A stretch of 18,645 nucleotides of DNA. It comes from a virus. Its lineage: Duplodnaviria > Heunggongvirae > Uroviricota > Caudoviricetes. This document shows, in pieces, positions 493-13,138 of this stretch. A model generated the notes under the pieces. That model was not told where the DNA came from and did no database searches. It worked only from the letters and a program-made list of their open reading frames with translations. A program made the position numbers and the translations under genes. How positions within the stretch are numbered: the stretch's first letter is position 1; every line of letters starts with the position of its first letter. The stretch lies in IMG/VR virus record IMGVR_UViG_3300029241_000184; one strand, 5' to 3'.

Positions 493-1722
493 TTATGCGG
501 CAATAACTTTGCATTTTTGAGACGAAACATAGTCACTCCACCATTGCATGAGAACCACCCGTTCAGTGAGATACTCTGCACGATTGTAGGCTGCAATTAT
601 TTCATCTTTCTTCGAGTGGGCAAGGGCGGCTTCTAAGACATCAGTCCTAAACTTGCCAGACTCCTCAGCAGCCGTTCTAGCAATGGATCGCATACCGTGA
701 GCTACAAGCTCACCTCCGAAACCCATACGGATTATGGCCGCATTAGCTGTTTGTTCATGCATGTGATTGAGTGGAGCTTTGATACTGGGGAACACCCACT
801 CTCTATGCCCGCTGATGACTTTCATTAAATCCAAAACTCGCAAAGCTTCTTTGCTCAGTGGAACTTTGTGAGGCTTCTTCATTTTCATAAACTCCGCCGG
901 GATGTTCCACATGCCAGTTTCAATATCAATATCTGACCATCTTGTGCGAACAGCTTCACCTGGGCGAACCCATGTGAGAAGTTGCCACTCAATCAGTAGC
1001 CTTGTTTCCAAACGGATAGAAGCATTGTTTAGAGCAACCAAGAAGCGAGGGAGTTCGGAAGGGGGTAATGCTGGCATATTCTGTTTTTTTGGCTTGCTGA
1101 ACCGTTGCCCCAGGTTGTCTGCCGGGTTGAATTCTATGAGTTCTTCTGTTGCTGCATAGCGGAAAATTTCATTCAGGCGGGATATGATGCGGCGAAGTGT
1201 TTCAAGGACACCTCGTTTTTCTATGGGTTCTAAATGCTGTTTAAGCATTTTAGGGCGAATCTCCTTAATTGGGGTATCACCCAATGTGGAAAAGATATTT
1301 CTCTCTAGGCTTCGCCAGATGTCGTTAGCATGATCTTGGGAGATGCCTGACGTTTTGACTTTCTCATCAAGCCACTTCTTGGCTACTGCTTGAAATGTAT
1401 GTTCCGTGGCATCTTTCAGTGCATTGGCTTTTTGGTTGTTATGAACTTGGGGGTCTATACCATTTGTAAGCAACGACAAGTATTCATCACGTAAAGCTCG
1501 TGCCTTCGCAAGTGTAAGGTGAGGATAGGTTCCTAAGCTCACCTTAGTTCGCTTTTTGGTCACAGGCACTGCATATCTGAAATACCAATTTTTCTTCCCT
1601 CCCTTCGCCAGGGGAGCGATTCGCAACAGCAAACCATCGCCGTCAAAAAGGTTAACCTCTTTTTCGGCAGGTTTGGTGCTTTTGATTTCAGTGTCAGTGA
1701 GCTTCTTAGCGATTTTGGCCAT
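493..1722 (-). CDS. int: Tyrosine recombinase, P4-family integrase (integrase of an older, neighbouring island)
   Basis: ORF 493..1803; preferred start is the in-frame ATG at 1722 (MAKIAKKLTDTEIK..., GAGGG about 10 nt upstream). N-terminus KLTDTEIK...DGDGLLL is typical of P4-like integrase arm-binding domains; C-terminus carries HGMRS and AYNRAEY, consistent with the H-x-x-R and catalytic Tyr boxes. Paralogous to the integrase at 11401..12591. Confidence 0.88.
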   Translation of the reverse strand: MAKIAKKLTDTEIKSTKPAEKEVNLFDGDGLLLRIAPLAKGGKKNWYFRYAVPVTKKRTKVSLGTYPHLTLAKARALRDEYLSLLTNGIDPQVHNNQKANALKDATEHTFQAVAKKWLDEKVKTSGISQDHANDIWRSLERNIFSTLGDTPIKEIRPKMLKQHLEPIEKRGVLETLRRIISRLNEIFRYAATEELIEFNPADNLGQRFSKPKKQNMPALPPSELPRFLVALNNASIRLETRLLIEWQLLTWVRPGEAVRTRWSDIDIETGMWNIPAEFMKMKKPHKVPLSKEALRVLDLMKVISGHREWVFPSIKAPLNHMHEQTANAAIIRMGFGGELVAHGMRSIARTAAEESGKFRTDVLEAALAHSKKDEIIAAYNRAEYLTERVVLMQWWSDYVSSQKCKVIAA

Positions 1723-1820
1723 GTTTGGGACCCTCGATTTTAGGACCCATCTTCGTGGGTCCCATTCAGGGTGCCATAACTCGTAGTTCTCAGCAATTCT
1801 CACTAGACTACAATAGACGT

Positions 1821-1854
1821 AAAAAAGCCCGCAGAGCTTGTGCTGTGCGGGCTT
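1821..1854 (-). terminator. Hairpin plus T-run on the minus strand; diverged duplicate of the ssrA terminator
   Basis: aaaaaagcccgcagagcttgtgctgtgcgggctt matches the ssrA terminator at 12708..12742 (aaaaaagcccacagggcttgtgccgtgcgggctt) with three substitutions; GC stem followed by a T-run when read on the minus strand. Confidence 0.5.
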
Positions 1855-1888
1855 AGTAGACTTTACTGAACTTCAGTACATCAATATT

Positions 1889-1910
1889 TGGTGGGCTGGC
1901 GGAGTCTGAC
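1889..1910. other. Degenerate copy of the ssrA 3' end; likely attR of the P4-like satellite and junction between the two tandem islands
   Basis: tggtgggctggcggagtctgac versus the true ssrA 3' end tggtggagctggcgggagttgaac at 12775..12798 (about 20 of 24 positions with two 1-nt gaps), lying the same distance and order from the terminator-like hairpin as in the intact ssrA. Confidence 0.5.
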
Positions 1911-2102: not shown

Positions 2103-2762
2103 TTACGGCTCTTCGCTATTGGGGTTCTTAACTTTTTCCCATTCAATGCCCAACCCTTTAAATTTTTGTGCAAATGGGATTACTATGAGCGCAACACAAG
2201 CCCCTAATAGTGCCATTCTCTCAGTGGTTAAAAAATTAAATCGTATATCTGCAATTACTATAAGTAATAAGGCGACAGCAAGAAACCAAGTAACTCGTTG
2301 AAAAATATCCATCGTTTGAGATTTTTTCTGCCGAATATCATTTTTCCTAACTGCTGACTGCTCTGCGGTAAGGGCTCGAAAAGTTGGGAAAAGATTGAAA
2401 TCAGATTTAACTAATTCACCCGAATCACTGACTGAATACAGTGAAAATGGCAATGGGTTATTAGGCAGGGAGGATACGGTCACCAAGAAAAGTGGGATTT
2501 TTTCATTTCCAATTGCTTGTTTGTATCTTTTTAATTGATTTAGAGTGTTTTCGCTATGTGCAAATCTGTCTGACTTTATTTCAATAATAGCAAGATATTC
2601 TTTCTTTTCTGGATCTATAATTGCAAAGTCTGGTCTATATGTGTTTTTGCCATCGTTGGAGAAAAATGCTGGTTCGTATAATATAGAATCTTTGGTATAT
2701 CCTAGTGATAATAAGTATTCAGAGAATTTATTTTCCGCCTCTGAATGGTAATTGTTGTCCAT
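2103..2762 (-). CDS. Membrane-anchored protein with an N-terminal restriction-endonuclease-like (PD-(D/E)xK, HsdR-N-like) motif and two C-terminal transmembrane helices; AT-rich cargo gene
   Basis: 219-aa ORF with GAGAGGGA about 7 nt upstream of the ATG at 2762. N-terminal segment LGY...YRPDFAIIDPEKKEYLAIIEIKS carries a D ... E-I-K arrangement as in restriction-endonuclease-fold proteins; C-terminus has two hydrophobic stretches (WFLAVALLLIVIADI and ALLGACVALIVIPFA). Visibly AT-rich compared with the neighbouring primase gene. Confidence 0.7.
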   Translation of the reverse strand: MDNNYHSEAENKFSEYLLSLGYTKDSILYEPAFFSNDGKNTYRPDFAIIDPEKKEYLAIIEIKSDRFAHSENTLNQLKRYKQAIGNEKIPLFLVTVSSLPNNPLPFSLYSVSDSGELVKSDFNLFPTFRALTAEQSAVRKNDIRQKKSQTMDIFQRVTWFLAVALLLIVIADIRFNFLTTERMALLGACVALIVIPFAQKFKGLGIEWEKVKNPNSEEP

Positions 2763-2956
2763 TACAGTCCCTCTCTGCTGTGTGAAAACTAGTGAGCTAA
2801 ATTAATAAGGTAACTAAAAAACGCAAGAGATTCAATTGATTAACGAGTGATAGGTCAAGTCAAGGTCAAACTCGGCGATCATGATGGTTATCTTGTTGAA
2901 TCACAGCCAGACATGATGAATTTCTAGGTTGGAGAAAAAACTTTTTTTCAGGAAAA

Positions 2957-3058
2957 CTGTTCACACTGTTCACACTGTTCACACCGTTGTTTTTGCTTTT
3001 AATTTCATAGTGATACGTTGTGAATGGTTGGTAAACAGTGAACACTTTACTGTTCATT
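2957..3058. repeat. Iteron cluster: three tandem CTGTTCACA repeats (2957..2983) plus inverted and variant copies (gtgaaca 3038..3044, tgttcat 3052..3058); candidate ori-type alpha-binding iterons
   Basis: Tandem 9-bp repeats seen directly; the core TGTTCAC matches the P4 type I iteron octamer TGTTCACC that I recall as the alpha-protein binding site in P4 ori and crr. Lies immediately downstream of the alpha-like gene. Confidence 0.6.
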
Positions 3059-3108: not shown

Positions 3109-5442
3109 TTATTTTGCTACAGGGTCATCACATTTCGGCAGCCAGTCGGCGTTGCTTTCCTCTCTTAGTGTTAGATTGGTTTGTATGCCCTGATTTTTTC
3201 GGCGCTTCTCATAACTTAGCCCGTACTCTTTCAGCATAGCTGGCAGCCCCTTACCGAACATGGTGAGGCTCAGGGTGTTCCTGTAGCCGTGGGCCTCCAT
3301 ATACGCCAGATAGGCATGATACAGATACAGGCGCGGCTGACGCGGAATGATGTTGGCATTGCCAATATACATTCCCTCAGGCTCCGGCAGTGCTTCCAGA
3401 TAGCCGCAAAAATCAAATGTCGGGTCAGCATCGCGTTTAATACTGAGCGCCTCGTCCGAGTTCTGCTGTGACTGGAGCAGGGCGCGGGCGGTCATCGGGT
3501 CGCTGAACTTCTGCATAAGCTGCCGAACAATCACCGCCAGCTCACGGGCGATTTTATTCTTAAGCTGCGGGTCACGTTCCTCCGGGGCAATCTGTTCCGG
3601 GAAATGCAGAATCACCCGGCGCCGTGAGACACCGCCGCTACGGTCGGTAAAGCGCATCGGGTTATTGTTCACGGCCAGAATCACCGCTGGAATATGGGTG
3701 GAGTACGCATCCTTGTATTTCGGGTCAACGGAGACCGCATCCCCGCCGGTGATGGCCTTGAGTCCTGCCCCGTCACCACTCCATTTTTCCTGGTCAGGCA
3801 GGCGTATCAGCGAGAAGCCAATCAGCGCAGCGCGTTCACGCGGTGATTCCAGCGTTTCGATGGTGGCCGATGTGGCGTTATCTTCCCCGGCGAGCAGGGT
3901 CGCAATTTCGGCCAGAATACTTTTCCCGCTGCCACCCGGCCCGGTCACTTCGAGAAAGAGCTGCCAGTCGTAGCGGTTCGCCAGTACCATAAACAGGGCG
4001 GCAAGTATCACGTCGCGTTTTTCCGGTCGGCCACCGGCGGCACGGTCGAGCCAGCGCCAGAAATCCGGCGCATGGGTTTCCAGCGTTTCGCCCTCCACCG
4101 GTGGGGTAAAATCGACATCACAGAGTGTGCGCAGCCAGTGCGATTTATGATGCGGGCTGAAAGTACCGGTAGCGGTATCGAGTACGCCGTTACGAAAACC
4201 AATCAGACGGCGCGCCGGTGCGTCCTGCTGCGGAATAATCAGTTTCAGGGTCTCCACCACTGAGGCAATTTTCCCCGACGAGAACGGTGCGCGCAGACGC
4301 TGAAATAACCCGGCCACGTCGCGGGCAAAATCCGATGGCGGAATGATTTTCCATATACCGGCCTCATAGCGGGACAGGAGCTGGCCATTTGCGTCCACGG
4401 CCAGCGCTTCGCCGTAATGTTCATGCACCCGCATTGCCTTTTCACTGGTGCTCATGGCGGTAAATTCCGCCTCGCTCATGGTAGTGAAAGGACTGTCAGC
4501 CAGTGGCCGGATGGCGTCATAAATCGCTTTCCGCGTCGCCTCTTCGCCTTTCTGAACGAACGCATCATTCCAGTCACCGAACACCGGCGGCAGGGCAACA
4601 ACACCCTCACAGGCGTCTGCGGCCGCAGCGGCTTTTGTCTGGCCGGCGCCGTTAAGGTCACGGTCGGCGGCGAGGACAATCTGACAGGCCGGGTGTTTCT
4701 GACGGGCAAGGCTCGCCAGAGAAAAGAGGTTCACGGAGGACAGCGCCACCATGACGGTTTCGCTGGTCAGGTGATGTACGGTGAGTGCCGTCGCATAACC
4801 CTCCGCAATCCACAGGCGTTTTCCGGCCTGTTTTTTTCCTCCGATGACATGACATGTCCCTTTGACCTGACCGCCTTTCAGGGTGCGTTTGAGACCGTCA
4901 GCATTAATAAGCTGAAGGTTAACCAGTGCGCCGGTATCCTCATACAGCGGGACAACCACATCCCCGGCGCGGAACGTCACGCCGCCGGTTTTATGCATGA
5001 CTGTCAGTACCGGACATTCCCGGTCGGGGAACCCCTTGCGGGTGAGGTAGGCGTTGTCGGTGGCCGGGCGCGTTTTCTCCAGCAGTCTGACGGCCAGCGC
5101 GGCCGCCGCTTTGCGGTCGGCATCGGTTTCAGCCTCTGCGGCTGCCATCACTTCCGGGGCAACCGGCGACAGATTGCCGGTCACGGCGTTCACCTTCCCG
5201 GCGGCTTCTGACGGGGTCACGCCAAACACTTTTTCTACCAGCTTAAGCCCGTCACCCGCGCCGCACTGATTGCAGAACCACGTCCCGCGCCCTTCTTTAT
5301 CGTCAAAGCGAAAACGGTCAGAGCCGCCACACACCGGACAGGCCTGATGGCGGTTTTTAATCACCTTCACACCCAGCGCCGGAAGAATGCGCGGCCAGTG
5401 GCCGCACGCCTGTTTTACCGTTTCTGTTACGTTCATTTTCAT
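3109..5442 (-). CDS. P4 alpha-type primase/helicase (zinc-binding primase N-terminus plus helicase domain)
   Basis: ORF 3109..5493; preferred start at ATG 5442 (MKMNVTETV..., GAGGGAG upstream) giving 777 aa, the length of P4 alpha. N-terminal CPVCGG...CNQCG zinc-binding motif; Walker A-like GPGGSGKS in the C-terminal half. Confidence 0.9.
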   Translation of the reverse strand: MKMNVTETVKQACGHWPRILPALGVKVIKNRHQACPVCGGSDRFRFDDKEGRGTWFCNQCGAGDGLKLVEKVFGVTPSEAAGKVNAVTGNLSPVAPEVMAAAEAETDADRKAAAALAVRLLEKTRPATDNAYLTRKGFPDRECPVLTVMHKTGGVTFRAGDVVVPLYEDTGALVNLQLINADGLKRTLKGGQVKGTCHVIGGKKQAGKRLWIAEGYATALTVHHLTSETVMVALSSVNLFSLASLARQKHPACQIVLAADRDLNGAGQTKAAAAADACEGVVALPPVFGDWNDAFVQKGEEATRKAIYDAIRPLADSPFTTMSEAEFTAMSTSEKAMRVHEHYGEALAVDANGQLLSRYEAGIWKIIPPSDFARDVAGLFQRLRAPFSSGKIASVVETLKLIIPQQDAPARRLIGFRNGVLDTATGTFSPHHKSHWLRTLCDVDFTPPVEGETLETHAPDFWRWLDRAAGGRPEKRDVILAALFMVLANRYDWQLFLEVTGPGGSGKSILAEIATLLAGEDNATSATIETLESPRERAALIGFSLIRLPDQEKWSGDGAGLKAITGGDAVSVDPKYKDAYSTHIPAVILAVNNNPMRFTDRSGGVSRRRVILHFPEQIAPEERDPQLKNKIARELAVIVRQLMQKFSDPMTARALLQSQQNSDEALSIKRDADPTFDFCGYLEALPEPEGMYIGNANIIPRQPRLYLYHAYLAYMEAHGYRNTLSLTMFGKGLPAMLKEYGLSYEKRRKNQGIQTNLTLREESNADWLPKCDDPVAK

Positions 5443-5456
5443 CGTTGTTTTCTCCC

Positions 5457-5777
5457 TCAGTGCACTACCGGTACGGTGATGTGACGGGCGCAAAGCTCAT
5501 CCATCACGGCCAGCCCGAGAAAGGACAGCGACGGCGCGGCTTTGAGTGGACCGGCTTCCATTAAATCTTCCAGTAATGCACAGGCTATCTGGCGGCCTTT
5601 TTCCTCGCCGTGCTGGCGCAGGTAGAAGCCCTCCAGCTCGGTAGCGATGGCACTTTCCAGCGCGTCGAGGGTGAGGTTCGGGTAGCGGCGCTGGCGTTCG
5701 CACAGGGTCAGCCATGCACAGGCCACGGCGCGACGATACAGCGCGGCGCGTAATACGGGCGGTAATGGCTTTTTCAT
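5457..5777 (-). CDS. Hypothetical protein of the satellite early operon (106 aa)
   Basis: ORF whose start overlaps the stop of the upstream ORF (translational coupling), ending 15 nt before the alpha start; same strand and operon as the alpha gene. No recognisable motif. Confidence 0.55.
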
Positions 5778-7087: not shown

Positions 7088-7192
7088 GGTGAACAGTAGT
7101 GAACAGTCGGTGAACAGTTACACCCTCAACTGTTCACCCTTTATCTTACTGTATTACTTATCTTTTTCTTTTCAGTGAACAGTAGTGAATAG
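7088..7192. repeat. Second iteron cluster: GGTGAACAGT x3 (7088..7117), inverted TGTTCACC (7131..7138), GTGAACAG (7175..7182) and variant gtgaatag; candidate crr-type alpha-binding iterons in the divergent early/late control region
   Basis: Direct and inverted copies of the same octamer as at 2957..3058, about 4.1 kb away; I recall that P4 ori and crr are separated by about 4.5 kb. Confidence 0.6.
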
Positions 7193-7268
7193 TTATAAGT
7201 AAAAAAACAAACAGTGAGTAAGGTTTTCCTGAGACCTTTCTCTGGCCAGCCGGGTTTTAAGGTCTGTT

Positions 7269-7358: not shown

Positions 7359-8096
7359 ATGACTCAGACCGCTGTTATTCCCGACTACCTTAAACCTGCA
7401 ATGGAACGCCTTGAGACTGCCCGCTCGGCGCATCTCGTCAATGCCAGCCGTATGGATGAAACCACGACGGCCATCAGCCAGGTGCAAACGCAAAAAAAGG
7501 AACTGGAGCAGGAAAACGGCAATGATTCCGGCGCATGGCGCGCCGCCTTTCGTGCCGGTGGTGCTGTCATTACCGACGAGCTGAAACAACGCCATCTGGC
7601 GCGCGTGGCACGGCGGGAACTGGCGCAGGAATGTGACAGCATGAACGAGGTACTGTCTTTTGAGCTGGACAGGCTCAAAGGAGCCTGTGACCGCACGGCC
7701 AGAGCATACCGTCAGGCACATCACGGCGTCCTCAGTCAGTATGCAGAGCATGAACTTGATGCTGCCCTGCGTGAAAGCTGCGGTGCCCTCATCAGAGCAA
7801 TGAAACTCAACATACTGGTTCTGAATAATCCGCTTGCTAATACGACCGGGCATCAGGGATATATCGAACCGGAAAAAGTTGTAATGCAGCAGGTGAAAGC
7901 GTGGCTTGAACAGGCCGTAAAGGGCTGCAATATCCGTCTGACCGATGAACCGGTGCTGTTTAAAACAGGGCTGTCGGCTTCCACACTGCCGCATATGGAA
8001 CATGACGTTGCGACCATGCCCGGTCAGCGAAAAGTCTGGCAGGAAAAAATGTGGGAACGTGAAGCTGACCTGAAAGCACGGGGGTTATTGTCATGA
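7359..8096 (+). CDS. sid: Sid-like protein (P4 capsid size determination / external scaffold), first gene of the late operon
   Basis: ORF 7293..8096 trimmed to ATG 7359 (MTQTAVIPDYLKP..., AAGAGGAG upstream) giving 245 aa, close to P4 Sid (244 aa); position immediately upstream of the Ogr/Delta-like and psu-like genes matches the P4 sid-delta-psu order. Called from size and synteny only. Confidence 0.55.
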   Translation: MTQTAVIPDYLKPAMERLETARSAHLVNASRMDETTTAISQVQTQKKELEQENGNDSGAWRAAFRAGGAVITDELKQRHLARVARRELAQECDSMNEVLSFELDRLKGACDRTARAYRQAHHGVLSQYAEHELDAALRESCGALIRAMKLNILVLNNPLANTTGHQGYIEPEKVVMQQVKAWLEQAVKGCNIRLTDEPVLFKTGLSASTLPHMEHDVATMPGQRKVWQEKMWEREADLKARGLLS

Positions 8097-8338
8097 TGCG
8101 CTGCCCTTTCTGCCGCACGGCGGCACACGTTCGCACCAGCCGCTATATGTCTGACAGCGTCAAAGAGAGTTACCTGCAGTGCCAGAATGTGCACTGCTCG
8201 GCGACATTCAAAACGCATGAGTCCATCTTTGAAGTGATACGTTCGCCGGTCGTCGATGAGAAACCCGCGCCGGTGCCGACAGCCCCCGTGGCACCCCGTC
8301 GGGTAAAAGGCTGCTACAGCTCGCCGTTCCGCCATTAA
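8093..8338 (+). CDS. Ogr/Delta-family zinc-finger late-gene transcriptional activator
   Basis: MMRCPFCRTAAHVRTSRYMSDSVKESYLQCQNVHCSATFKTHES has the C-x2-C ... C-x4-C arrangement and RTSRY / QCQN motifs of P2 Ogr and P4 Delta; start overlaps the stop of the sid-like gene. Confidence 0.85.
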   Translation: MMRCPFCRTAAHVRTSRYMSDSVKESYLQCQNVHCSATFKTHESIFEVIRSPVVDEKPAPVPTAPVAPRRVKGCYSSPFRH

Positions 8339-8354
8339 TCAGGAGAGACAACCC

Positions 8355-8921
8355 GTGACCACTCTGACCTTACAGCAGGCCTATGACGCCTGTCAGACGA
8401 ACAAAACCGCGTGGCTGAACCGTAAAACCGAACTGGCCGCCGCAATGCAGGAATATCAGGAATTATTGCTGGATGACAATGTATCAGGCTCCCGCAGATT
8501 ACAGATGCTGCGTGACCTGATTGACGTAAAAAAATGGGAAGTTAATCAGGCCGCCGGTCGCTACATCTTCTCGCATGAGGAGGTGCAGCGCATCAGCATC
8601 CGTAACCGGCTGCATGATTTTATGCAGCAGAACGGCGCAGAGCTGGCCGCCGCACTGGCACCGGAGCTGATGGGGATTAAAAACCAGCCCGCGATGATAA
8701 AAAATCGCGCGCTTGACCGTTCAGTCTCTTACCTGAGAGAAGCTCTTTCCGTCTGGCTGACCGCTGGAAATGACATTAATTATTCTGCACTGGATAACGA
8801 CATCTTAACGGCCATCGGATACAGGCCTGACGCGCCTTCGCGGGATGATAATCGTGAAAAATTCACCCCTGCACAGAACATGATTTACACCCGTCGACGC
8901 GCCGGACTGGCCGCGCAGTAG
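8355..8921 (+). CDS. psu: Psu-like protein (P4 polarity suppression / capsid decoration)
   Basis: 188 aa (P4 Psu is 190 aa), third gene of the sid-delta-psu type operon; N-terminal region ...QQAYDACQTNKTAWLNRKTELAAA... and QAAGRYI resemble Psu as I recall it. Confidence 0.75.
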   Translation: MTTLTLQQAYDACQTNKTAWLNRKTELAAAMQEYQELLLDDNVSGSRRLQMLRDLIDVKKWEVNQAAGRYIFSHEEVQRISIRNRLHDFMQQNGAELAAALAPELMGIKNQPAMIKNRALDRSVSYLREALSVWLTAGNDINYSALDNDILTAIGYRPDAPSRDDNREKFTPAQNMIYTRRRAGLAAQ

Positions 8922-9094: not shown

Positions 9095-9113
9095 GGCGTG
9101 GCGGGGAGAGCAT
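9095..9113. other. cos-like site (P2/186/P4-type 19-nt cohesive end sequence)
   Basis: ggcgtggcggggagagcat differs at one position from the phage 186 cohesive end GGCGTGGCGGGGAAAGCAT as I recall it, and at three from P2 (GGCGAGGCGGGGAAAGCAC); lies just downstream of psu, where cos sits in P4. Confidence 0.55.
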
Positions 9114-9375
9114 TGCGCGCTAAGTTAAAGATACTTTTAATTTTACAACTACGTTGTGATATCTTTTTAACTCGCTAATTCAATAGTGATAAAACAATTT
9201 TTTATAGCTAATAAGAATCAATTCCAGACTAACAATCGTCAAAAACTATGTTTTGTGAATGGCTATCTAAAAATACTGGCTTAATTATTTGACGTGATCT
9301 AAAGTACTGATGAAATTATTATACTGATTTAATTTTTTAACTGCTAAAAACATTAACAAAAAATAAGGGATTCAC

Positions 9376-11361
9376 ATGGCAGAGAAATCATTTAATGTAG
9401 AAGTACAGATGGATTATTTAGATAAGGTTTCTAAATCTTCTGCATTACAAGCAATCGCTGAGTTGGTATGGAATGCCTTAGATGCTGATGCTGAAAATGT
9501 ATATGTTGATTTGACAGAGTCTGAATTAGGACTCTCGCATATATTTATCAGGGATGATGGTAATGGTATTCCCTATGAGAATGCAGAAAAATTATTTAGT
9601 TCACTGGGCGGATCATGGAAAAAAGACAAGGTTTTATCAGAAAGAAAATCTCGTTTTTTACACGGAAAAGAAGGGCAGGGACGTTTTAAGGCATTCTCAA
9701 TAGGTCGATATATTGAGTGGGATACTACTTATTTACTTGATGATGTATATTATGAATATAAAATAAAAGGAATAGCTGATAATAAGAAAAAGATTTCAGT
9801 TTCTGATAAGGTAGTATCAAGTGAAGTTAAATCAGGAACAGTTGTTTCTATATTGGAATTGGTGAAAAACTTCACCTCTTTGACACCTCAAAAACTATCT
9901 GAGTTTCTTTCCACTACACTTGCTTTATATCTTAGTAAATACCCATCCGTAAAAGTATTTGTAAATCGAGAACAAATCGATCCAACAGCACAGATTTTAT
10001 TTGATACAAGCTATAAATTAGATGATGTAGTTTATTGTGATGAATTACATTCATATGAGTTACAAGTTATTGAATGGAAGTCAGCTAAAGAAAATGAGAT
10101 TTTTTTATGCGACAAAGAAGGTTTTCCCTTAATAAGTTATGAGAAGAAAATTAGAGGGACTGGTACATATTCTTATTCTGTTTATTTGAAGTCTACACAT
10201 TTGACCAAACTTTCCCATGAGGGTACTTTGTCGCTCATGGATTTAGAGCCTTCTTTAAGCCCTGTATTAAATAAAGTCGAAGGTTTGATAAAGGAACACT
10301 TCCGGAAAAGAGATCATGAAAAGTCAAGGGAGTTAATTGATAAATGGAAAAATGAAGGTGTTTATCCGTATGTTGGTAAGGCCGAAAATATTGTTGAGGA
10401 TGCTGAAAGAAAAGTATTCGATATTATGGCCATCAATGTTATAAAATACATACCACAATTTGATAATGGCGATCTTAAACTTAAGAAATTTCAGTTTAAA
10501 TTACTCAAGCATATTGTTGGGAGTTGCCCTGATGACTTGAGAACTATATTAGAGGAGGTTCTCTCGCTTCCTAAGGAAAAACAAGCTGAATTGGCTGAGA
10601 TATTAAGGGATGCCTCATTGTCAGCTGTTATTAGTGTTTCCAAAATAATTACTGATAGATTGAAGTTCATATCTGGGCTTGAGAATGTATTATTTCATCC
10701 GAATACAAGAAAAGTATTCAAAGAGAGAAGTCAGCTTCATAAAATAATGGCGGATAATACATGGTTTTTTGGTGAGTCTTTTACATTGAGTGTCAATGAT
10801 AAGTCACTAACTGAAGTATTAAAAGTACATTTGGAAAAGCAAGGGATTGATATTCCAGTTGATGAGAAAGTAACTAGGATAGATGGTAGTGTAGGTATTG
10901 TTGATTTAATGCTTACTAGAAGTATAGGCAAAAATTACCCAGATGAGCGTGAGCATATTATTATCGAATTAAAGGCACCTAAAGTAAATATAGGTCAATC
11001 AGAAATAGAACAGGTTAAATCCTATGCGTATGCAGTTGCTGAAGACGCAAGATTTAATGGTTTAAAAACAAAGTGGAACTTCTGGGTTATATCGAATGAG
11101 CTCACAACTTATGCTCTCAGAGAATTAAAACAAAAAAACCTTCCTGAAGGTGCAATATATCAAGCTGAAGAAATGACTATTTGGATAAAAACTTGGTCCC
11201 AACTTATTCAAGAGAACAAACATAGATTGGGTTTTCTACAGAATCAGCTTAATATTTCGTATGACCGTGAAGATGGACTACAGTTCTTAAAGCAAAAGTA
11301 TGCTGAGTACACTGAGGGCGTTGTATTTGAAAATGAATCACAGGATGAGTATATAGATTAA
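9376..11361 (+). CDS. 661-aa GHKL-type (HATPase_c, Bergerat-fold) ATPase fused to a C-terminal PD-(D/E)xK-like nuclease motif; candidate single-gene anti-phage defense protein carried as satellite cargo
   Basis: Single uninterrupted ORF with AAGGGA 6 nt upstream of the ATG. N-terminus: E29-x3-N33-A-x-D36-A (N box; E29 codon at 9460), D60-D-G-N-G64-I (G1 box, 9556..9567), G97-K-E-G-Q-G102 (G2 box, 9664..9681). C-terminus: GIVD510LML ... IIIE531LK533 (D at 10903..10905, E-L-K at 10966..10974) in the arrangement of PD-(D/E)xK nucleases. Strongly AT-rich with A/T-ending codons, unlike the flanking P4 core genes. Confidence 0.85.
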   Translation: MAEKSFNVEVQMDYLDKVSKSSALQAIAELVWNALDADAENVYVDLTESELGLSHIFIRDDGNGIPYENAEKLFSSLGGSWKKDKVLSERKSRFLHGKEGQGRFKAFSIGRYIEWDTTYLLDDVYYEYKIKGIADNKKKISVSDKVVSSEVKSGTVVSILELVKNFTSLTPQKLSEFLSTTLALYLSKYPSVKVFVNREQIDPTAQILFDTSYKLDDVVYCDELHSYELQVIEWKSAKENEIFLCDKEGFPLISYEKKIRGTGTYSYSVYLKSTHLTKLSHEGTLSLMDLEPSLSPVLNKVEGLIKEHFRKRDHEKSRELIDKWKNEGVYPYVGKAENIVEDAERKVFDIMAINVIKYIPQFDNGDLKLKKFQFKLLKHIVGSCPDDLRTILEEVLSLPKEKQAELAEILRDASLSAVISVSKIITDRLKFISGLENVLFHPNTRKVFKERSQLHKIMADNTWFFGESFTLSVNDKSLTEVLKVHLEKQGIDIPVDEKVTRIDGSVGIVDLMLTRSIGKNYPDEREHIIIELKAPKVNIGQSEIEQVKSYAYAVAEDARFNGLKTKWNFWVISNELTTYALRELKQKNLPEGAIYQAEEMTIWIKTWSQLIQENKHRLGFLQNQLNISYDREDGLQFLKQKYAEYTEGVVFENESQDEYID

Positions 11362-11371
11362 CATAATTGAA

Positions 11372-11402
11372 AGGCTCGCCAGTTTATTCTGGCGAGTTTC
11401 TT
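11372..11402 (+). terminator. Rho-independent terminator after the cargo gene, convergent with the end of int
   Basis: Stem ctcgccag / ctggcgag (8 bp) with a 6-nt loop, followed by tttctt. Confidence 0.5.
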
Positions 11403-12591
11403 AAAGACTGGATACTTTATTACCCCACCAATTCATTAATTCTATTCTTTGCGGAAGATATATAGAGCGATTATAAGCTCTTCGTACTTCATCTTTATAA
11501 CTATGAGCTAGTGCTGCCTCAATAACATCAGCATTGAATCCTGCTTCATTCATGGCAGTACTGGCTATAGAACGTAAACCATGTGCAACAAGCTTTCCAC
11601 CATAACCAATTCTCTTCAGCGCAGCATTAGCAGTCTGGCTATTCATTGGCAGCTTAGGGTCATTTCTGCTAGGAAAAACATGTTCTCGATGGGCACTGAT
11701 TGGCTTCATCACTTCTAAAATTTCTAATGCTTGAGGAGACAAAGGTACGATGTGCTCTCGTTTAGCCTTCATCCGTTCGGCTGGAATCGTCCAAAGCTTC
11801 GCATCAAGATCGATCTCTTCCCACCGAGCTCCGGAAGCCTCAGAAGGACGCACAAGGGTCAGGAGCTGCCACTCAATTAGACAGCGAGTCGAAACAGATA
11901 GATTCGACATGACTAGAGAACGCATCAGCTTTGGCAATTCCTCTGGCCGCAGCGTCGGCATATTTTGCTTTTTGGGCTTCTCAAAGGCCATCCCAACTCC
12001 TGAGGCTGGGTTCGCATCAATCAGACCCGTGTTTACGGCATAAATCATTATCTCGTTAATGCGTTGCACCAGTCGACGTACAGTCTCAAGCGCCCCACGA
12101 GCTTTGATGGGCTCAAGAGCTTCAACCAGTGTCCGGGCTTTGATTTGCTGAACAGGGATCTCACCGATGGCAGGGAATACATCTTTCTCCAGTGAGCGCC
12201 AAATGTCTTTTGCGTAATCAGGGGTAACGCTTTTGCTTTTGAGCTGGAACCAGTTAGCGGCGACCGTTGAAAAAATACTGTCCAGTGCGATTTGCTGCTG
12301 TTCCTCTGCAACTTCAGCTTGAATCTGTGGGTCGATTCCATTGGCTAATAAGGCAAGGTAATCAGCTCTTAACCCTCGGGCATCAGCAAGCGATAGGGCG
12401 GGGAAGGCTCCGAGTCCCATCATTGTCCGCTGTTTTGTTGCCGGACGTTGATAACGGAAACGCCAGAGCTTTTTGCCGCTGGTTTTCACTATCAGGAAAA
12501 GCCCATCGCCATCATGTAGCGTTAGATCCTTCTCTAGCGCTTTAGCGCGCAGAACTTCGGTGTTGGTCAGGGGGCGTGTTGTCCGTGCCAC
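11401..12591 (-). CDS. int: Tyrosine recombinase, P4-family integrase of the satellite, adjacent to ssrA
   Basis: 396-aa ORF; N-terminal LTLHDGDGLFL...GKKLWRFRY as in P4-type integrases; C-terminal HGLRS and AYNRSIY catalytic boxes; same orientation as ssrA and immediately downstream of it. Confidence 0.92.
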   Translation of the reverse strand: MARTTRPLTNTEVLRAKALEKDLTLHDGDGLFLIVKTSGKKLWRFRYQRPATKQRTMMGLGAFPALSLADARGLRADYLALLANGIDPQIQAEVAEEQQQIALDSIFSTVAANWFQLKSKSVTPDYAKDIWRSLEKDVFPAIGEIPVQQIKARTLVEALEPIKARGALETVRRLVQRINEIMIYAVNTGLIDANPASGVGMAFEKPKKQNMPTLRPEELPKLMRSLVMSNLSVSTRCLIEWQLLTLVRPSEASGARWEEIDLDAKLWTIPAERMKAKREHIVPLSPQALEILEVMKPISAHREHVFPSRNDPKLPMNSQTANAALKRIGYGGKLVAHGLRSIASTAMNEAGFNADVIEAALAHSYKDEVRRAYNRSIYLPQRIELMNWWGNKVSSL

Positions 12592-12707: not shown

Positions 12708-12742
12708 AAAAAAGCCCACAGGGCTTGTGCCGTGCGGGCTTT
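12708..12742 (-). terminator. ssrA rho-independent terminator
   Basis: On the minus strand, stem aagcccgcacggcacaagccctgtgggctt followed by tttttt, about 33 nt downstream of the mature tmRNA 3' end. Confidence 0.7.
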
Positions 12743-12774: not shown

Positions 12775-13138
12775 GTGGTGGAGCTGGCGGGAGTTGAACC
12801 CGCGTCCGAAATTCCTACATCCTCGGTACTACATGCTTAGTCAGTCTTTATATTCGCTTGCCAGCTGCGGACGGACACGCCACTAACAAACTAGCCTGAT
12901 TAAGTTTTAACGCTTCAACCCCAGGCAGGGCTTCCACGCGATCTCTTTTGGGTTTGACCTCTCTTGATCCCCGTCCTAAGAGCGGAGGCTAGGGAGAGAG
13001 GGCTCTAAGCAGGTTATTAAGCTGCTAAAGCGTAGTTTTCGTCGTTTGCGACTATTTTTTGCGGCTTTTTACGAGGCCAACCGCCCCTCGGCATGCACCT
13101 TGGGTTTCGCAAATCCCGTCGAATCCAGAATCAGCCCC
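12775..13138 (-). ncRNA. ssrA: tmRNA (SsrA, transfer-messenger RNA)
   Basis: Minus strand reads GGGGCTGATTCTGGATTCGACGGG ... GGAGTTGAACCCGCCAGCTCCACCA; internal tag reading frame at 13017..13049 (minus) encodes ANDENYALAA followed by a stop. Length about 363 nt; ends are within a few nt. Confidence 0.95.

What the first reader, a model, noticed from the sequence alone, without database searches (positions are those of the whole stretch)
9376..11361. Single-gene GHKL ATPase-nuclease fusion in the cos/psu-to-int cargo slot of a P4-like satellite: candidate undescribed anti-phage system
One 661-aa gene fills the position in P4-like satellites where anti-phage cargo has been reported to sit, between the late operon/cos and the integrase (in P4 itself this slot holds gop-beta-cII). 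The translation shows a complete Bergerat ATPase signature (E-x3-N-A-x-D-A, DDGNGI, GKEGQG) at the N-terminus and a PD-(D/E)xK-like catalytic arrangement (IVD510 ... IIIE531-L-K533) near the C-terminus, i.e. an ATP-driven sensor or motor fused to a DNA-cleaving effector. GHKL (MORC/MutL-like) ATPases coupled to restriction-type nucleases have been predicted as defence modules by comparative genomics, but I do not recognise this architecture as a named, validated system. The gene is strongly AT-rich against a GC-rich P4 backbone and has its own upstream AT-rich region and downstream terminator, consistent with an independently acquired cassette.
Basis: partly seen in the sequence, partly recalled or inferred. 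Interest (0 to 1): 0.88.

Follow-up and report, generated by a model that had tools for sequence, protein, structure and literature searches.

The report
GHKL ATPase-nuclease defence gene in satellite
A single gene in the variable cargo slot of a P4-like phage satellite in E. coli encodes an ATP-driven clamp fused to a DNA-cutting domain; this design was predicted in 2008 and shown to block phages in 2025 for a distant relative, so this is an untested branch of a known kind, not a new kind.

Summary
Window 9376-11361(+) is an intact 661-aa ORF, AT-rich (GC 0.32-0.35 against 0.52-0.61), lying between psu/cos and int of a P4-like satellite integrated at ssrA. It has a full GHKL ATPase domain with a transducer-like middle domain, a helical linker, and a PD-(D/E)xK nuclease with invariant D510 and E531 and near-invariant K533, Q546 and Y550.

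This architecture is not undescribed. It is paraMORC3 (Iyer et al. 2008) and 'Shedu type 1D' (Gu et al. 2023). VcSduA of Vibrio cholerae, a single-gene GHKL + PD-(D/E)xK protein, was validated in 2025. This exact protein (WP_021536577) is already listed, unnamed and untested, in Rousset et al. 2022's P4-hotspot table.

It is nevertheless a separate sequence family. BLASTP against VcSduA finds nothing. The published VcSduA model recovers no Escherichia hit. PADLOC and Pfam SduA_C models miss it. Profile-profile comparison supports homology only for the GHKL + middle module (96%). The nuclease halves are collinear with motifs in register, but that part is not significant alone.

The family is large (720 clusters at 50% identity with E ≤ 1e-30) and sits on satellites, islands, plasmids and phages.

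Verdict: a likely anti-phage nuclease, a new member of a known kind, of moderate interest.

The parts
9376..11361 (+). 661-aa ORF (WP_021536577.1): single-gene GHKL ATPase + PD-(D/E)xK nuclease
   Evidence: Present at 99.8-100% identity in 11 of 5426 complete E. coli genomes. The exact sequence occurs on 321 contigs.
9376..9885 (+). GHKL (Bergerat) ATPase domain, residues 1-170: motif I E29/N33/D36, motif II D60-x-G62-x-G64, motif III G97/G100/G102, motif IV G154-T155
   Evidence: Pfam HATPase_c_3 E 5.9e-15. Family profile against PDB sequences hits MutL, MLH1, PMS2, TopoVI-B and MORC2. Residues invariant.
9886..10257 (+). beta-rich middle (transducer / S5-like) domain, residues 171-294
   Evidence: AF2 model with pLDDT 84-94 in this stretch. 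Foldseek alignments to Hsp90/TRAP1, MORC and MutL N-terminal + middle domains span 330-440 columns. hhalign to the VcSduA family extends to residue 282-310.
10258..10710 (+). all-helical linker region, residues 295-445 (386-419 modelled with low confidence)
   Evidence: AF2 secondary structure and pLDDT. No family match.
10711..11250 (+). PD-(D/E)xK nuclease domain, residues 446-625: motif I E450, II D510, III E531-x-K533, IV Q546-xxx-Y550, terminal strand-helix I-W-I-K-T-W-S-Q-L-I
9125..9375 (+). AT-rich upstream non-coding region with RBS (AAGGG 8 nt before the ATG); presumed promoter region
   Evidence: Sequence. Composition. Only the RBS-proximal part is conserved between the E. coli, Pantoea and Klebsiella contexts. 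No promoter call above chance.
11375..11396 (.). G+C-rich hairpin between the convergent cargo gene and int; likely bidirectional terminator
9095..9113 (+). cos-like 19-mer GGCGTGGCGGGGAGAGCAT marking the left edge of the cargo slot
   Evidence: 3 mismatches to the P2/P4 cos sequence (recalled from memory). 0 of 200 shuffles match. Conserved in the Pantoea P4-like element.
8355..8921 (+). psu (left flank of hotspot)
   Evidence: Pfam Psu E 1.4e-87
11401..12591 (-). P4-type integrase (right flank of hotspot), next to ssrA at 12776-13138

Best explanation
The gene encodes a stand-alone anti-phage nuclease of the GHKL-ATPase + PD-(D/E)xK type (paraMORC3 / 'GHKL-Shedu' class), carried as exchangeable cargo in the defence hotspot of a P4-like satellite. 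Shown here: an intact GHKL ATPase with a transducer-like middle domain, a helical linker, and a restriction-endonuclease-fold domain with all catalytic residues conserved. Inferred from established GHKL mechanism (MutL, MORC, TopoVI-B, Hsp90) and from VcSduA: ATP binding drives dimerisation of the N-terminal domains into a clamp. That conformational switch licenses or positions the two C-terminal nuclease domains, arranged as in the NucS/EndoMS dimer, to cut invading phage DNA. Both ATP hydrolysis (E29, N33, D60) and nuclease catalysis (D510, E531, K533) would be needed. By analogy with VcSduA, protection would be direct rather than abortive. What the protein senses as 'foreign' is unknown. 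No cognate methyltransferase is present, so it is not a classical R-M system.
For: Domains and catalytic residues. Hotspot position; the same psu-int slot holds the 81%-identical gene in Pantoea. Defence and mobile-element contexts elsewhere: directly next to a canonical Shedu gene in a Klebsiella integrase island; beside an IS element in Alteromonas; in a Vibrio island with a VspR-type regulator and a ResIII helicase; among non-structural hypothetical genes in the tail region of Pasteurella phage Pmp14; on 59 plasmids, including one where it is translationally coupled to a Type ISP R-M enzyme and flanked by toxin-antitoxin pairs. No adjacent methyltransferase in the window or in the chromosomal contexts examined. 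Precedent: VcSduA has the same architecture, E27A and K557A abolish defence, and it protects at all MOIs. hhalign places E29 on E27, N33 on N31, D510 on D527, E531/K533 on E555/K557 and Q546/Y550 on Q575/Y579, with the GHKL + middle module homologous at 96% probability. In a 2026 preprint, 6 of 8 randomly chosen unknown P4 hotspot loci protected against phages.
Against: There are no experimental data for this family. It was catalogued but not tested in 2022, and an exact 14-mer from the gene is absent from the constructs of the 2026 P4 study. Sequence homology to VcSduA is significant only for the GHKL + middle module, which all GHKL + transducer proteins share. The linker + nuclease half scores 19.4 against 17.2 for a reversed-profile control, so the mechanistic analogy rests on architecture and motifs. 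Some homologues sit as solitary genes among housekeeping genes with no mobile-element markers, as in Shewanella and Pseudomonas. The promoter is not identified. The oligomeric state was not modelled.
Confidence: 0.62

Rival explanations
1. It is an orphan restriction endonuclease of the GHKL-containing type II class (BbrUII/HgiDII-like). It would be either modification-dependent (type IV-like) or would work with a methyltransferase or R-M enzyme encoded elsewhere, with ATP hydrolysis used for DNA looping or communication between sites, as Iyer et al. proposed for paraMORCs.
Against: The NF050001 score is 65.8 bits against a cut-off of 550 and covers only the GHKL domain. No methyltransferase is adjacent in the window or in six other chromosomal contexts. 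No modified-base reader domain (SRA, EVE, PUA) was detected. Iyer et al. themselves note that the nuclease-fused paraMORC3 genes are stand-alone.
Confidence: 0.2
2. It is an abortive-infection or toxin-like effector. On sensing infection, the GHKL switch releases a non-specific nuclease that degrades host and phage DNA alike, killing the cell.
For: Some Shedu proteins (PD-T4-8) have been proposed to act by abortive infection. The PD-(D/E)xK domain has no recognisable specificity element. Gu et al. suggest GHKL N-terminal domains may sense misfolded proteins, like Hsp90.
Against: The only validated GHKL + PD-(D/E)xK protein, VcSduA, protects at all MOIs without culture collapse. There is no antitoxin or immunity partner in the slot.
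Confidence: 0.1
3. It serves the satellite or the cell in DNA metabolism rather than in defence, for example as a MutL-like repair factor, in interference with the helper phage, or in satellite maintenance.
For: Some databases name it 'DNA mismatch repair protein MutL'. It lies next to cos in a satellite whose biology involves manipulating the helper phage.
Against: Similarity to MutL is confined to the GHKL motifs. TIGR00585 scores 32.8 bits against a cut-off of 180, and there is no MutL C-terminal domain. The gene occurs in many non-satellite contexts. It is present in only 11 of 5426 complete E. coli genomes, occupies a slot known for swapping defence cargo, and has a foreign base composition.
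Confidence: 0.05

Closest known systems
VcSduA of Vibrio cholerae WASA lineage (A1552VC_00276, AWB73059.1; Adams et al., Nat Microbiol 2025, PMC12137116), classed as Shedu type I-D
   Same: Single gene of about 660-670 aa with the same order of parts: GHKL ATPase, middle/clamp domain, helical region, C-terminal PD-(D/E)xK nuclease with E...D...ExK...QxxxY. Stand-alone on a mobile island with no methyltransferase. The GHKL + middle modules are homologous by profile-profile comparison (96%, E 3e-9). A full-length collinear alignment puts the mutated residues E27 and K557 on E29 and K533.
   Different: No pairwise similarity (BLASTP best E 1.6), and about 18% identity in the profile alignment. 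Motif I here is MutL/MORC-like (AELVWNALDADA) against FEAVINSIHS in VcSduA. This family is readily recognised by Pfam HATPase_c_3, whereas VcSduA is not. The linker + nuclease half is not significantly similar. The published VcSduA HMM search (543 hits in 45,725 genomes) contains no Escherichia entry and no ELVWNALDADA motif. No phenotype is known for this family.
paraMORC3 family (Iyer, Abhiman and Aravind 2008, PMC2292703)
   Same: The definition fits point by point: GHKL + S5-like domain plus an extra conserved C-terminal globular domain of the restriction-endonuclease fold with E-D-ExK motifs and RecB-like features (here QxxxY). The family is prevalent in Proteobacteria, sporadically distributed, and the nuclease-fused members are stand-alone genes.
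   Different: paraMORC3 was a purely computational family. I could not check whether this clade was in their alignment, because the additional file is not held. They favoured an R-M accessory or DNA-looping role.
Canonical Shedu (SduA, DUF4263 / Pfam PF14082 SduA_C; structures 8TI8/8TI9 B. cereus, 8PS4 E. coli)
   Same: Single-protein defence nuclease with an N-terminal regulatory module and a C-terminal PD-(D/E)xK domain carrying motifs I-IV (E, D, ExK, Q). The nearest solved fold of both is NucS/EndoMS. Both share a terminal strand-helix motif (T/S)(F/W)xxL. A canonical Shedu gene sits next to the Klebsiella homologue.
BbrUII/HgiDII-type restriction enzymes (NCBIfam NF050001) and PADLOC REase_II models PDLC03419 / PDLC03485
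   Same: Proteins of about 610-695 aa with an N-terminal GHKL domain similar to this one. They are the best hits in NCBIfam and PADLOC.
   Different: The match covers only residues of about 12-205 and lies far below the curated cut-off (65.8 against 550 bits). No cognate methyltransferase is adjacent here.
MutL / MORC / Hsp90 GHKL ATPases
   Same: Bergerat fold plus transducer domain. These are the best solved-structure matches for residues 1 to about 330-440.
   Different: No MutL C-terminal endonuclease/dimerisation domain, and no CW or coiled-coil elements. The C-terminus here is a PD-(D/E)xK nuclease. The database name 'DNA mismatch repair protein MutL' is a mis-annotation.

Membership tests
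GHKL ATPase superfamily | Bergerat-fold motifs I (ExxxN), II (DxGxG), III (G-rich lid) and IV (GT) | tested here: met
   E29/N33, D60/G62/G64, G97/G100/G102 and G154-T155 are invariant or nearly so. Pfam HATPase_c_3 scores 55.9 bits against a cut-off of 25.
GHKL ATPase superfamily | GHKL fold followed by a transducer / S5-like middle domain | tested here: met
   The AF2 model matches TRAP1/Hsp90, MORC2/3/4 and MutL N-terminal + middle domains at E 1e-11 to 1e-9 over 330-440 columns.
PD-(D/E)xK nuclease superfamily | Restriction-endonuclease-like fold with D...(D/E)xK on the core strands | tested here: met
paraMORC3 (Iyer et al. 2008) | GHKL + S5 module fused to a conserved C-terminal RE-fold domain with E-D-ExK; stand-alone gene; proteobacterial or Bacteroidetes distribution | tested here: met
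   Architecture. E450-D510-E531xK533. Stand-alone in 7 contexts. Definition.
paraMORC3 (Iyer et al. 2008) | Inclusion in the authors' own family alignment or tree | not testable with these tools
   The additional file is not held, and the text names no paraMORC3 accession.
Shedu (SduA, DUF4263 / PF14082) | Match to Pfam PF14082 (SduA_C) | tested here: not met
   0 of 33 members at E ≤ 1 and 0 of 55 at E ≤ 0.1. The control Shedu scores 90.6 bits. Caveat: VcSduA itself also fails this test.
Shedu (SduA, DUF4263 / PF14082) | Detection by PADLOC SduA models | tested here: not met
   No SduA model hits. The control Shedu hits about 20 models at E down to 1e-166. VcSduA also gives no hit.
Shedu (SduA, DUF4263 / PF14082) | Nuclease domain specifically related to the Shedu core, by profile-profile or structural comparison | tested here: inconclusive
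Shedu (SduA, DUF4263 / PF14082) | Recovery by PSI-BLAST to convergence from B. cereus DUF4263 (the operational definition of Gu et al.) | not testable with these tools
   Method described. Their Table S3 is not held.
VcSduA family (GHKL-Shedu, type I-D) | Detected by the VcSduA sequence or HMM | tested here: not met
   BLASTP best E 1.6. No Escherichia entry and no ELVWNALDADA motif among the 543 published hits.
VcSduA family (GHKL-Shedu, type I-D) | Homology of the GHKL + middle module | tested here: met
   hhalign probability 96%, E 2.9e-9, 220 columns. Earlier runs gave 87% and 95% full-length. This is not shown to be closer than to other GHKL + transducer proteins.
VcSduA family (GHKL-Shedu, type I-D) | Homology of the linker + nuclease half | tested here: inconclusive
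   Collinear with catalytic motifs in register, but the score alone is 19.4 against 17.2 for a reversed-profile control.
VcSduA family (GHKL-Shedu, type I-D) | Anti-phage phenotype dependent on the ATPase Glu and the nuclease Lys | not testable with these tools
   Needs plaque assays with E29A and K533A mutants.
BbrUII/HgiDII restriction enzymes (NF050001) | Score above the curated cut-off, and an adjacent cognate methyltransferase | tested here: not met
   65.8 bits against 550, covering the N-terminal domain only. No methyltransferase in the slot.
MutL | TIGR00585 / MutL equivalog score and a MutL C-terminal domain | tested here: not met
   32.8 bits against 180, covering residues 24-75 only. 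PDB matches are confined to motifs I-II.
P4-like satellite hotspot cargo (Rousset et al. 2022) | Variable gene(s) between psu/cos and int of a P4-like element | tested here: met
   The exact protein is listed in their Table S1A.

The most novel reading that the evidence does not exclude
This MutL/MORC-like GHKL-nuclease family is an independent lineage rather than a divergent Shedu or VcSduA. On this reading, a GHKL + transducer module was fused to a different PD-(D/E)xK nuclease (HsdR-N/NucS-like), and the protein has its own trigger and target range. It would be a widespread defence family (more than 700 clusters at 50% identity, on satellites, plasmids and phages) that current annotation tools miss entirely. 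In some lineages it may cooperate with Type ISP R-M enzymes.
Probability: 0.3. Interest if true: 0.6.

Novelty: new member of a known kind. Interest (0 to 1): 0.4.

Why it matters
If it is confirmed as defensive, a large family would be added to the defence catalogue: 2,603 clusters at 50% identity with E ≤ 1e-3, of which 720 have E ≤ 1e-30. PADLOC, Pfam SduA_C and the published VcSduA model all miss it at present, and databases often mislabel it as 'MutL'. It would also be a second, very divergent example for asking how a GHKL ATP switch controls a nuclease, and what such proteins sense in the absence of a methyltransferase. That question was left open for VcSduA. It would not establish a new principle. 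The architecture was predicted in 2008 and validated in 2025, and the locus was already listed in the 2022 P4-hotspot survey.

Tried and rejected
1. I asked whether the gene is the 'Aernus' system, or any other newly named P4 system, from the 2026 preprint. It is not. Aernus is DUF4365 + AbiGii, none of the six named systems is GHKL + PD-(D/E)xK, and an exact 14-mer of the gene is absent from their construct files.

2. I looked for the protein in Adams et al.'s VcSduA hit table. The journal copy is truncated. The preprint copy is complete and does not contain it.

3. Sequence searches of the family profile, both full length and C-terminal domain alone, against PDB sequences gave only GHKL hits for the full-length profile and nothing for the nuclease domain.

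4. Domain-only hhalign and hmmsearch between this nuclease domain, the VcSduA C-terminus and canonical SduA_C were all noise. The positive control was noise too, so the test has no power at the alignment depths available.

5. The Gu et al. supplement listing Shedu homologues is not held.

6. Promoter and terminator consensus scans around the gene found no more sites than in shuffled sequence.

7. The Domainator paper and the E. coli defence-island paper do not mention this protein or its domains.

8. Direct-repeat search for att sites found nothing at 16 nt or longer. A degenerate copy of the ssrA 3' end was found by eye instead.
Full report
OBSERVATION. The window is E. coli chromosome. The stretch 9376-11361 is 99.8-100% identical in 11 of 5426 complete E. 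coli genomes, where RefSeq calls the product 'ATP-binding protein' WP_021536577.1. The ORF is intact at 661 aa. Its GC content is 0.32-0.35, against 0.52-0.61 for the flanking P4 backbone.

The surroundings are a P4-like satellite integrated at ssrA. They comprise the alpha primase-helicase (3109-5493, minus strand), an Ash/Icd-like gene, a sid-like ORF, delta (8093-8338), psu (8355-8921), a cos-like 19-mer (9095-9113), the gene itself, int (11401-12591, minus strand), tmRNA (12776-13138) and smpB. A degenerate copy of the ssrA 3' end near 1886-1905 and a repeated hairpin (1823-1856 and 12708-12742) bound the element at about 10.9 kb. They also show a second integrase island in tandem to its left. 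The one correction is that the invariant Asp of the DxGxG box is D60, not D61.

WHAT THE PROTEIN IS. Pfam HATPase_c_3 matches residues 25-139 above threshold (E 5.9e-15). A PD-(D/E)xK family, HSDR_N_2, matches 495-554 just below threshold. A 33-sequence alignment (44-83% identity) and a 75-sequence alignment (30-43% identity) show invariant E29, N33, D36, D60, G62, G97, G100, G102, D510 and E531. K533, Q546, Y550 and E450 are conserved in at least 90% of sequences.

An AlphaFold2 model (pLDDT 76.8) divides the protein into four parts: a GHKL domain (1-170), a beta-rich middle domain (171-294), an all-helical region (295-445) and an alpha/beta domain (446-625). Foldseek matches the first 330-440 residues to TRAP1/Hsp90, MORC2/3/4 and MutL N-terminal + middle domains at E 1e-11 to 1e-9.

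WHAT IS ALREADY KNOWN. Iyer, Abhiman and Aravind (2008) defined paraMORC3 as GHKL + S5 plus a conserved C-terminal restriction-endonuclease-fold domain with E-D-ExK motifs. They found it prevalent in Proteobacteria, with the nuclease-fused members occurring as stand-alone genes. Gu et al. (2023) grouped DUF4263 proteins that carry HATPase_c_3 and an Hsp90/MORC-like middle domain as enzymatic 'type 1D' Shedu.

Adams et al. (2025) showed that VcSduA, a single-gene GHKL + PD-(D/E)xK protein on V. cholerae VSP-II, protects E. coli against Drexlerviridae and V. cholerae against phage X29. E27A and K557A abolish protection, and cultures survive at all MOIs. Rousset et al. (2022) list this very protein, WP_021536577, as a single-gene 'HATPase_c_3' locus in two P4-like satellites in their Table S1A. 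Their main text does not discuss it.

The 2026 preprint that tested unknown P4 cargo did not include it. The locus itself had already been catalogued.

IS IT A MEMBER OF THOSE FAMILIES? I recovered VcSduA and its relatives using the 399-aa N-terminal part of the sequence given in the preprint's supplement. BLASTP between the two proteins finds nothing (best E 1.6). The published table of 543 VcSduA-model hits in 45,725 genomes has no Escherichia entry and no instance of this family's ELVWNALDADA motif.

With a diverse profile (75 sequences, Neff 4.7), hhalign aligns the two families end to end: probability 95%, E 2e-8, 547 columns. E29 falls on E27, N33 on N31, D510 on D527, E531/K533 on E555/K557, and Q546/Y550 on Q575/Y579. 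Decomposing that result is sobering. The GHKL + middle module alone gives 96% (score 69.9). The linker + nuclease half alone scores 19.4, against 17.2 for a reversed-profile control. Only the N-terminal homology is demonstrated, and any GHKL + transducer protein would share it to some degree.

For the Shedu core, none of 33 close or 55 distant members hits Pfam SduA_C, and no PADLOC SduA model hits. Cross-family HMM scores are 5 bits or less. The controls matter here. A canonical Shedu from Klebsiella scores strongly on all of these tests, but VcSduA fails them all as well. These tests therefore cannot separate 'GHKL-Shedu' from 'not Shedu'.

FAMILY SIZE AND CONTEXT. An exhaustive HMMER scan of 1.84 billion cluster representatives finds 2,603 clusters at E ≤ 1e-3 and 720 at E ≤ 1e-30. 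The best 150 are nearly all collinear full-length proteins of about 640-700 aa at 31-44% identity. The fusion is therefore old and stable. The contexts examined were as follows.

- Pantoea (81% identity): the same psu-int slot at ssrA.
- Klebsiella grimontii: an integrase island where the gene lies directly beside a canonical Shedu gene.
- Alteromonas: an IS-flanked site.
- Vibrio renipiscarius: an island with a VspR-type regulator and a ResIII helicase.
- Pseudomonas and Shewanella: solitary insertions among housekeeping genes.
- Pasteurella phages Pmp3 and Pmp14: in Pmp14 the gene lies among hypothetical genes inside the tail module.
- Plasmids: 59 records. In Phaeobacter pGal_E78 the gene's start overlaps the stop of a Type ISP R-M gene, between toxin-antitoxin pairs.

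No DNA methyltransferase gene is adjacent in the window or in the chromosomal contexts examined. Database names vary between 'ATP-binding protein', 'DNA mismatch repair protein MutL' and 'HsdR N-terminal domain-containing protein'. The MutL label is a mis-annotation, because similarity is confined to the Bergerat motifs.

MECHANISM. Shown: an intact ATPase site, a transducer-like domain, an intact nuclease site, cargo position in a defence hotspot, and repeated association with mobile elements and other defence genes. Inferred: ATP-dependent dimerisation of the GHKL domains, as in MutL, MORC and TopoVI-B, gates or positions a NucS-like pair of nuclease domains on invading DNA. Defence would need both activities, as in VcSduA, and would be direct rather than abortive. 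Unknown: the signal that distinguishes phage DNA from host DNA.

The rivals are an orphan or type-IV-like GHKL restriction enzyme, or an accessory to an R-M system (0.2); an abortive-infection nuclease (0.1); and a non-defence DNA-metabolism role (0.05).

VERDICT. The finding is a likely anti-phage gene of a kind already predicted (2008), classified (2023) and validated in a very distant relative (2025), at a locus already listed in 2022. What remains new is that this large, MutL/MORC-like family is untested and is not detected by PADLOC, Pfam SduA_C or the published VcSduA model. Novelty: new member of a known kind. Interest: 0.4.

Noticed in passing
window 2103-2762 (- strand): A second AT-rich cargo-like ORF (219 aa) lies inside the satellite, between alpha and the attR-like site. 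Its N-terminus is a PD-(D/E)xK domain (Pfam HSDR_N_2, 28.5 bits, above threshold) and its C-terminal third is hydrophobic and looks membrane-spanning. RefSeq names it 'HsdR N-terminal domain-containing protein'. The only PADLOC hit is a weak one to PDC-M47B (E 0.014). It may be a second, small defence or exclusion gene at the other end of the element.
   Followed up: partly
window 493-1905: A second tyrosine integrase (493-1803, minus strand) lies to the left of the satellite. It is preceded by a copy of the hairpin seen next to the P4 int (1823-1856 and 12708-12742) and by a degenerate ssrA 3' end (about 1886-1905). This points to two islands in tandem at ssrA. Strain Rb-23 lacks the second integrase and has glaH there instead.
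   Followed up: partly
window 2955-2990 and 7089-7193: There are clusters of TGTTCAC / GTGAACAGT repeats: ctgttcacactgttcacactgttcacacc at about 2955-2985, and GTGAACAGTAGTGAACAGT twice, 86 nt apart, at 7089-7193. They resemble the alpha-protein binding iterons of the P4 ori and crr (from memory; not tested).
   Followed up: no
L012 (Phaeobacter gallaeciensis plasmid pGal_E78) 2076-10137: The 38%-identical homologue starts 4 nt before the stop of a 1642-aa Type ISP restriction-modification enzyme gene and is followed by a 374-aa hypothetical gene. The block is flanked by RelE/ParE and VapBC toxin-antitoxin pairs. This suggests that some members of the family work in an operon with an R-M enzyme.
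   Followed up: partly
L002 5983-7359 and L003 5984-7359 (Klebsiella grimontii): The canonical Shedu gene next to the homologue is intact (458 aa) in one assembly. In another it is split into 226-aa and 219-aa ORFs, so it appears to be decaying while the GHKL-nuclease gene stays intact.
   Followed up: no
cluster of the window protein: In Salmonella enterica serovar Senftenberg, many copies are annotated at 516-536 aa or 649-653 aa on contigs of 20-80 kb. This may reflect N-terminal truncations, frameshifts or different start calls in that lineage.
   Followed up: no
Rousset et al. 2022 Table S1A: A different 'HATPase_c_3' protein, WP_089563614, alone or with a hypothetical partner WP_047615349, occupies the same P4 hotspot in other E. 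coli strains. P2 hotspots also hold a DNA_methylase + HATPase_c_3 cassette. Their relationship to this family was not checked.
   Followed up: no
VcSduA family (P0172-P0291): The validated VcSduA and its relatives get no Pfam hit above noise for either HATPase_c or SduA_C, and no PADLOC hit. Standard HMM libraries of the versions available here therefore miss the validated GHKL-Shedu family as well.
   Followed up: yes
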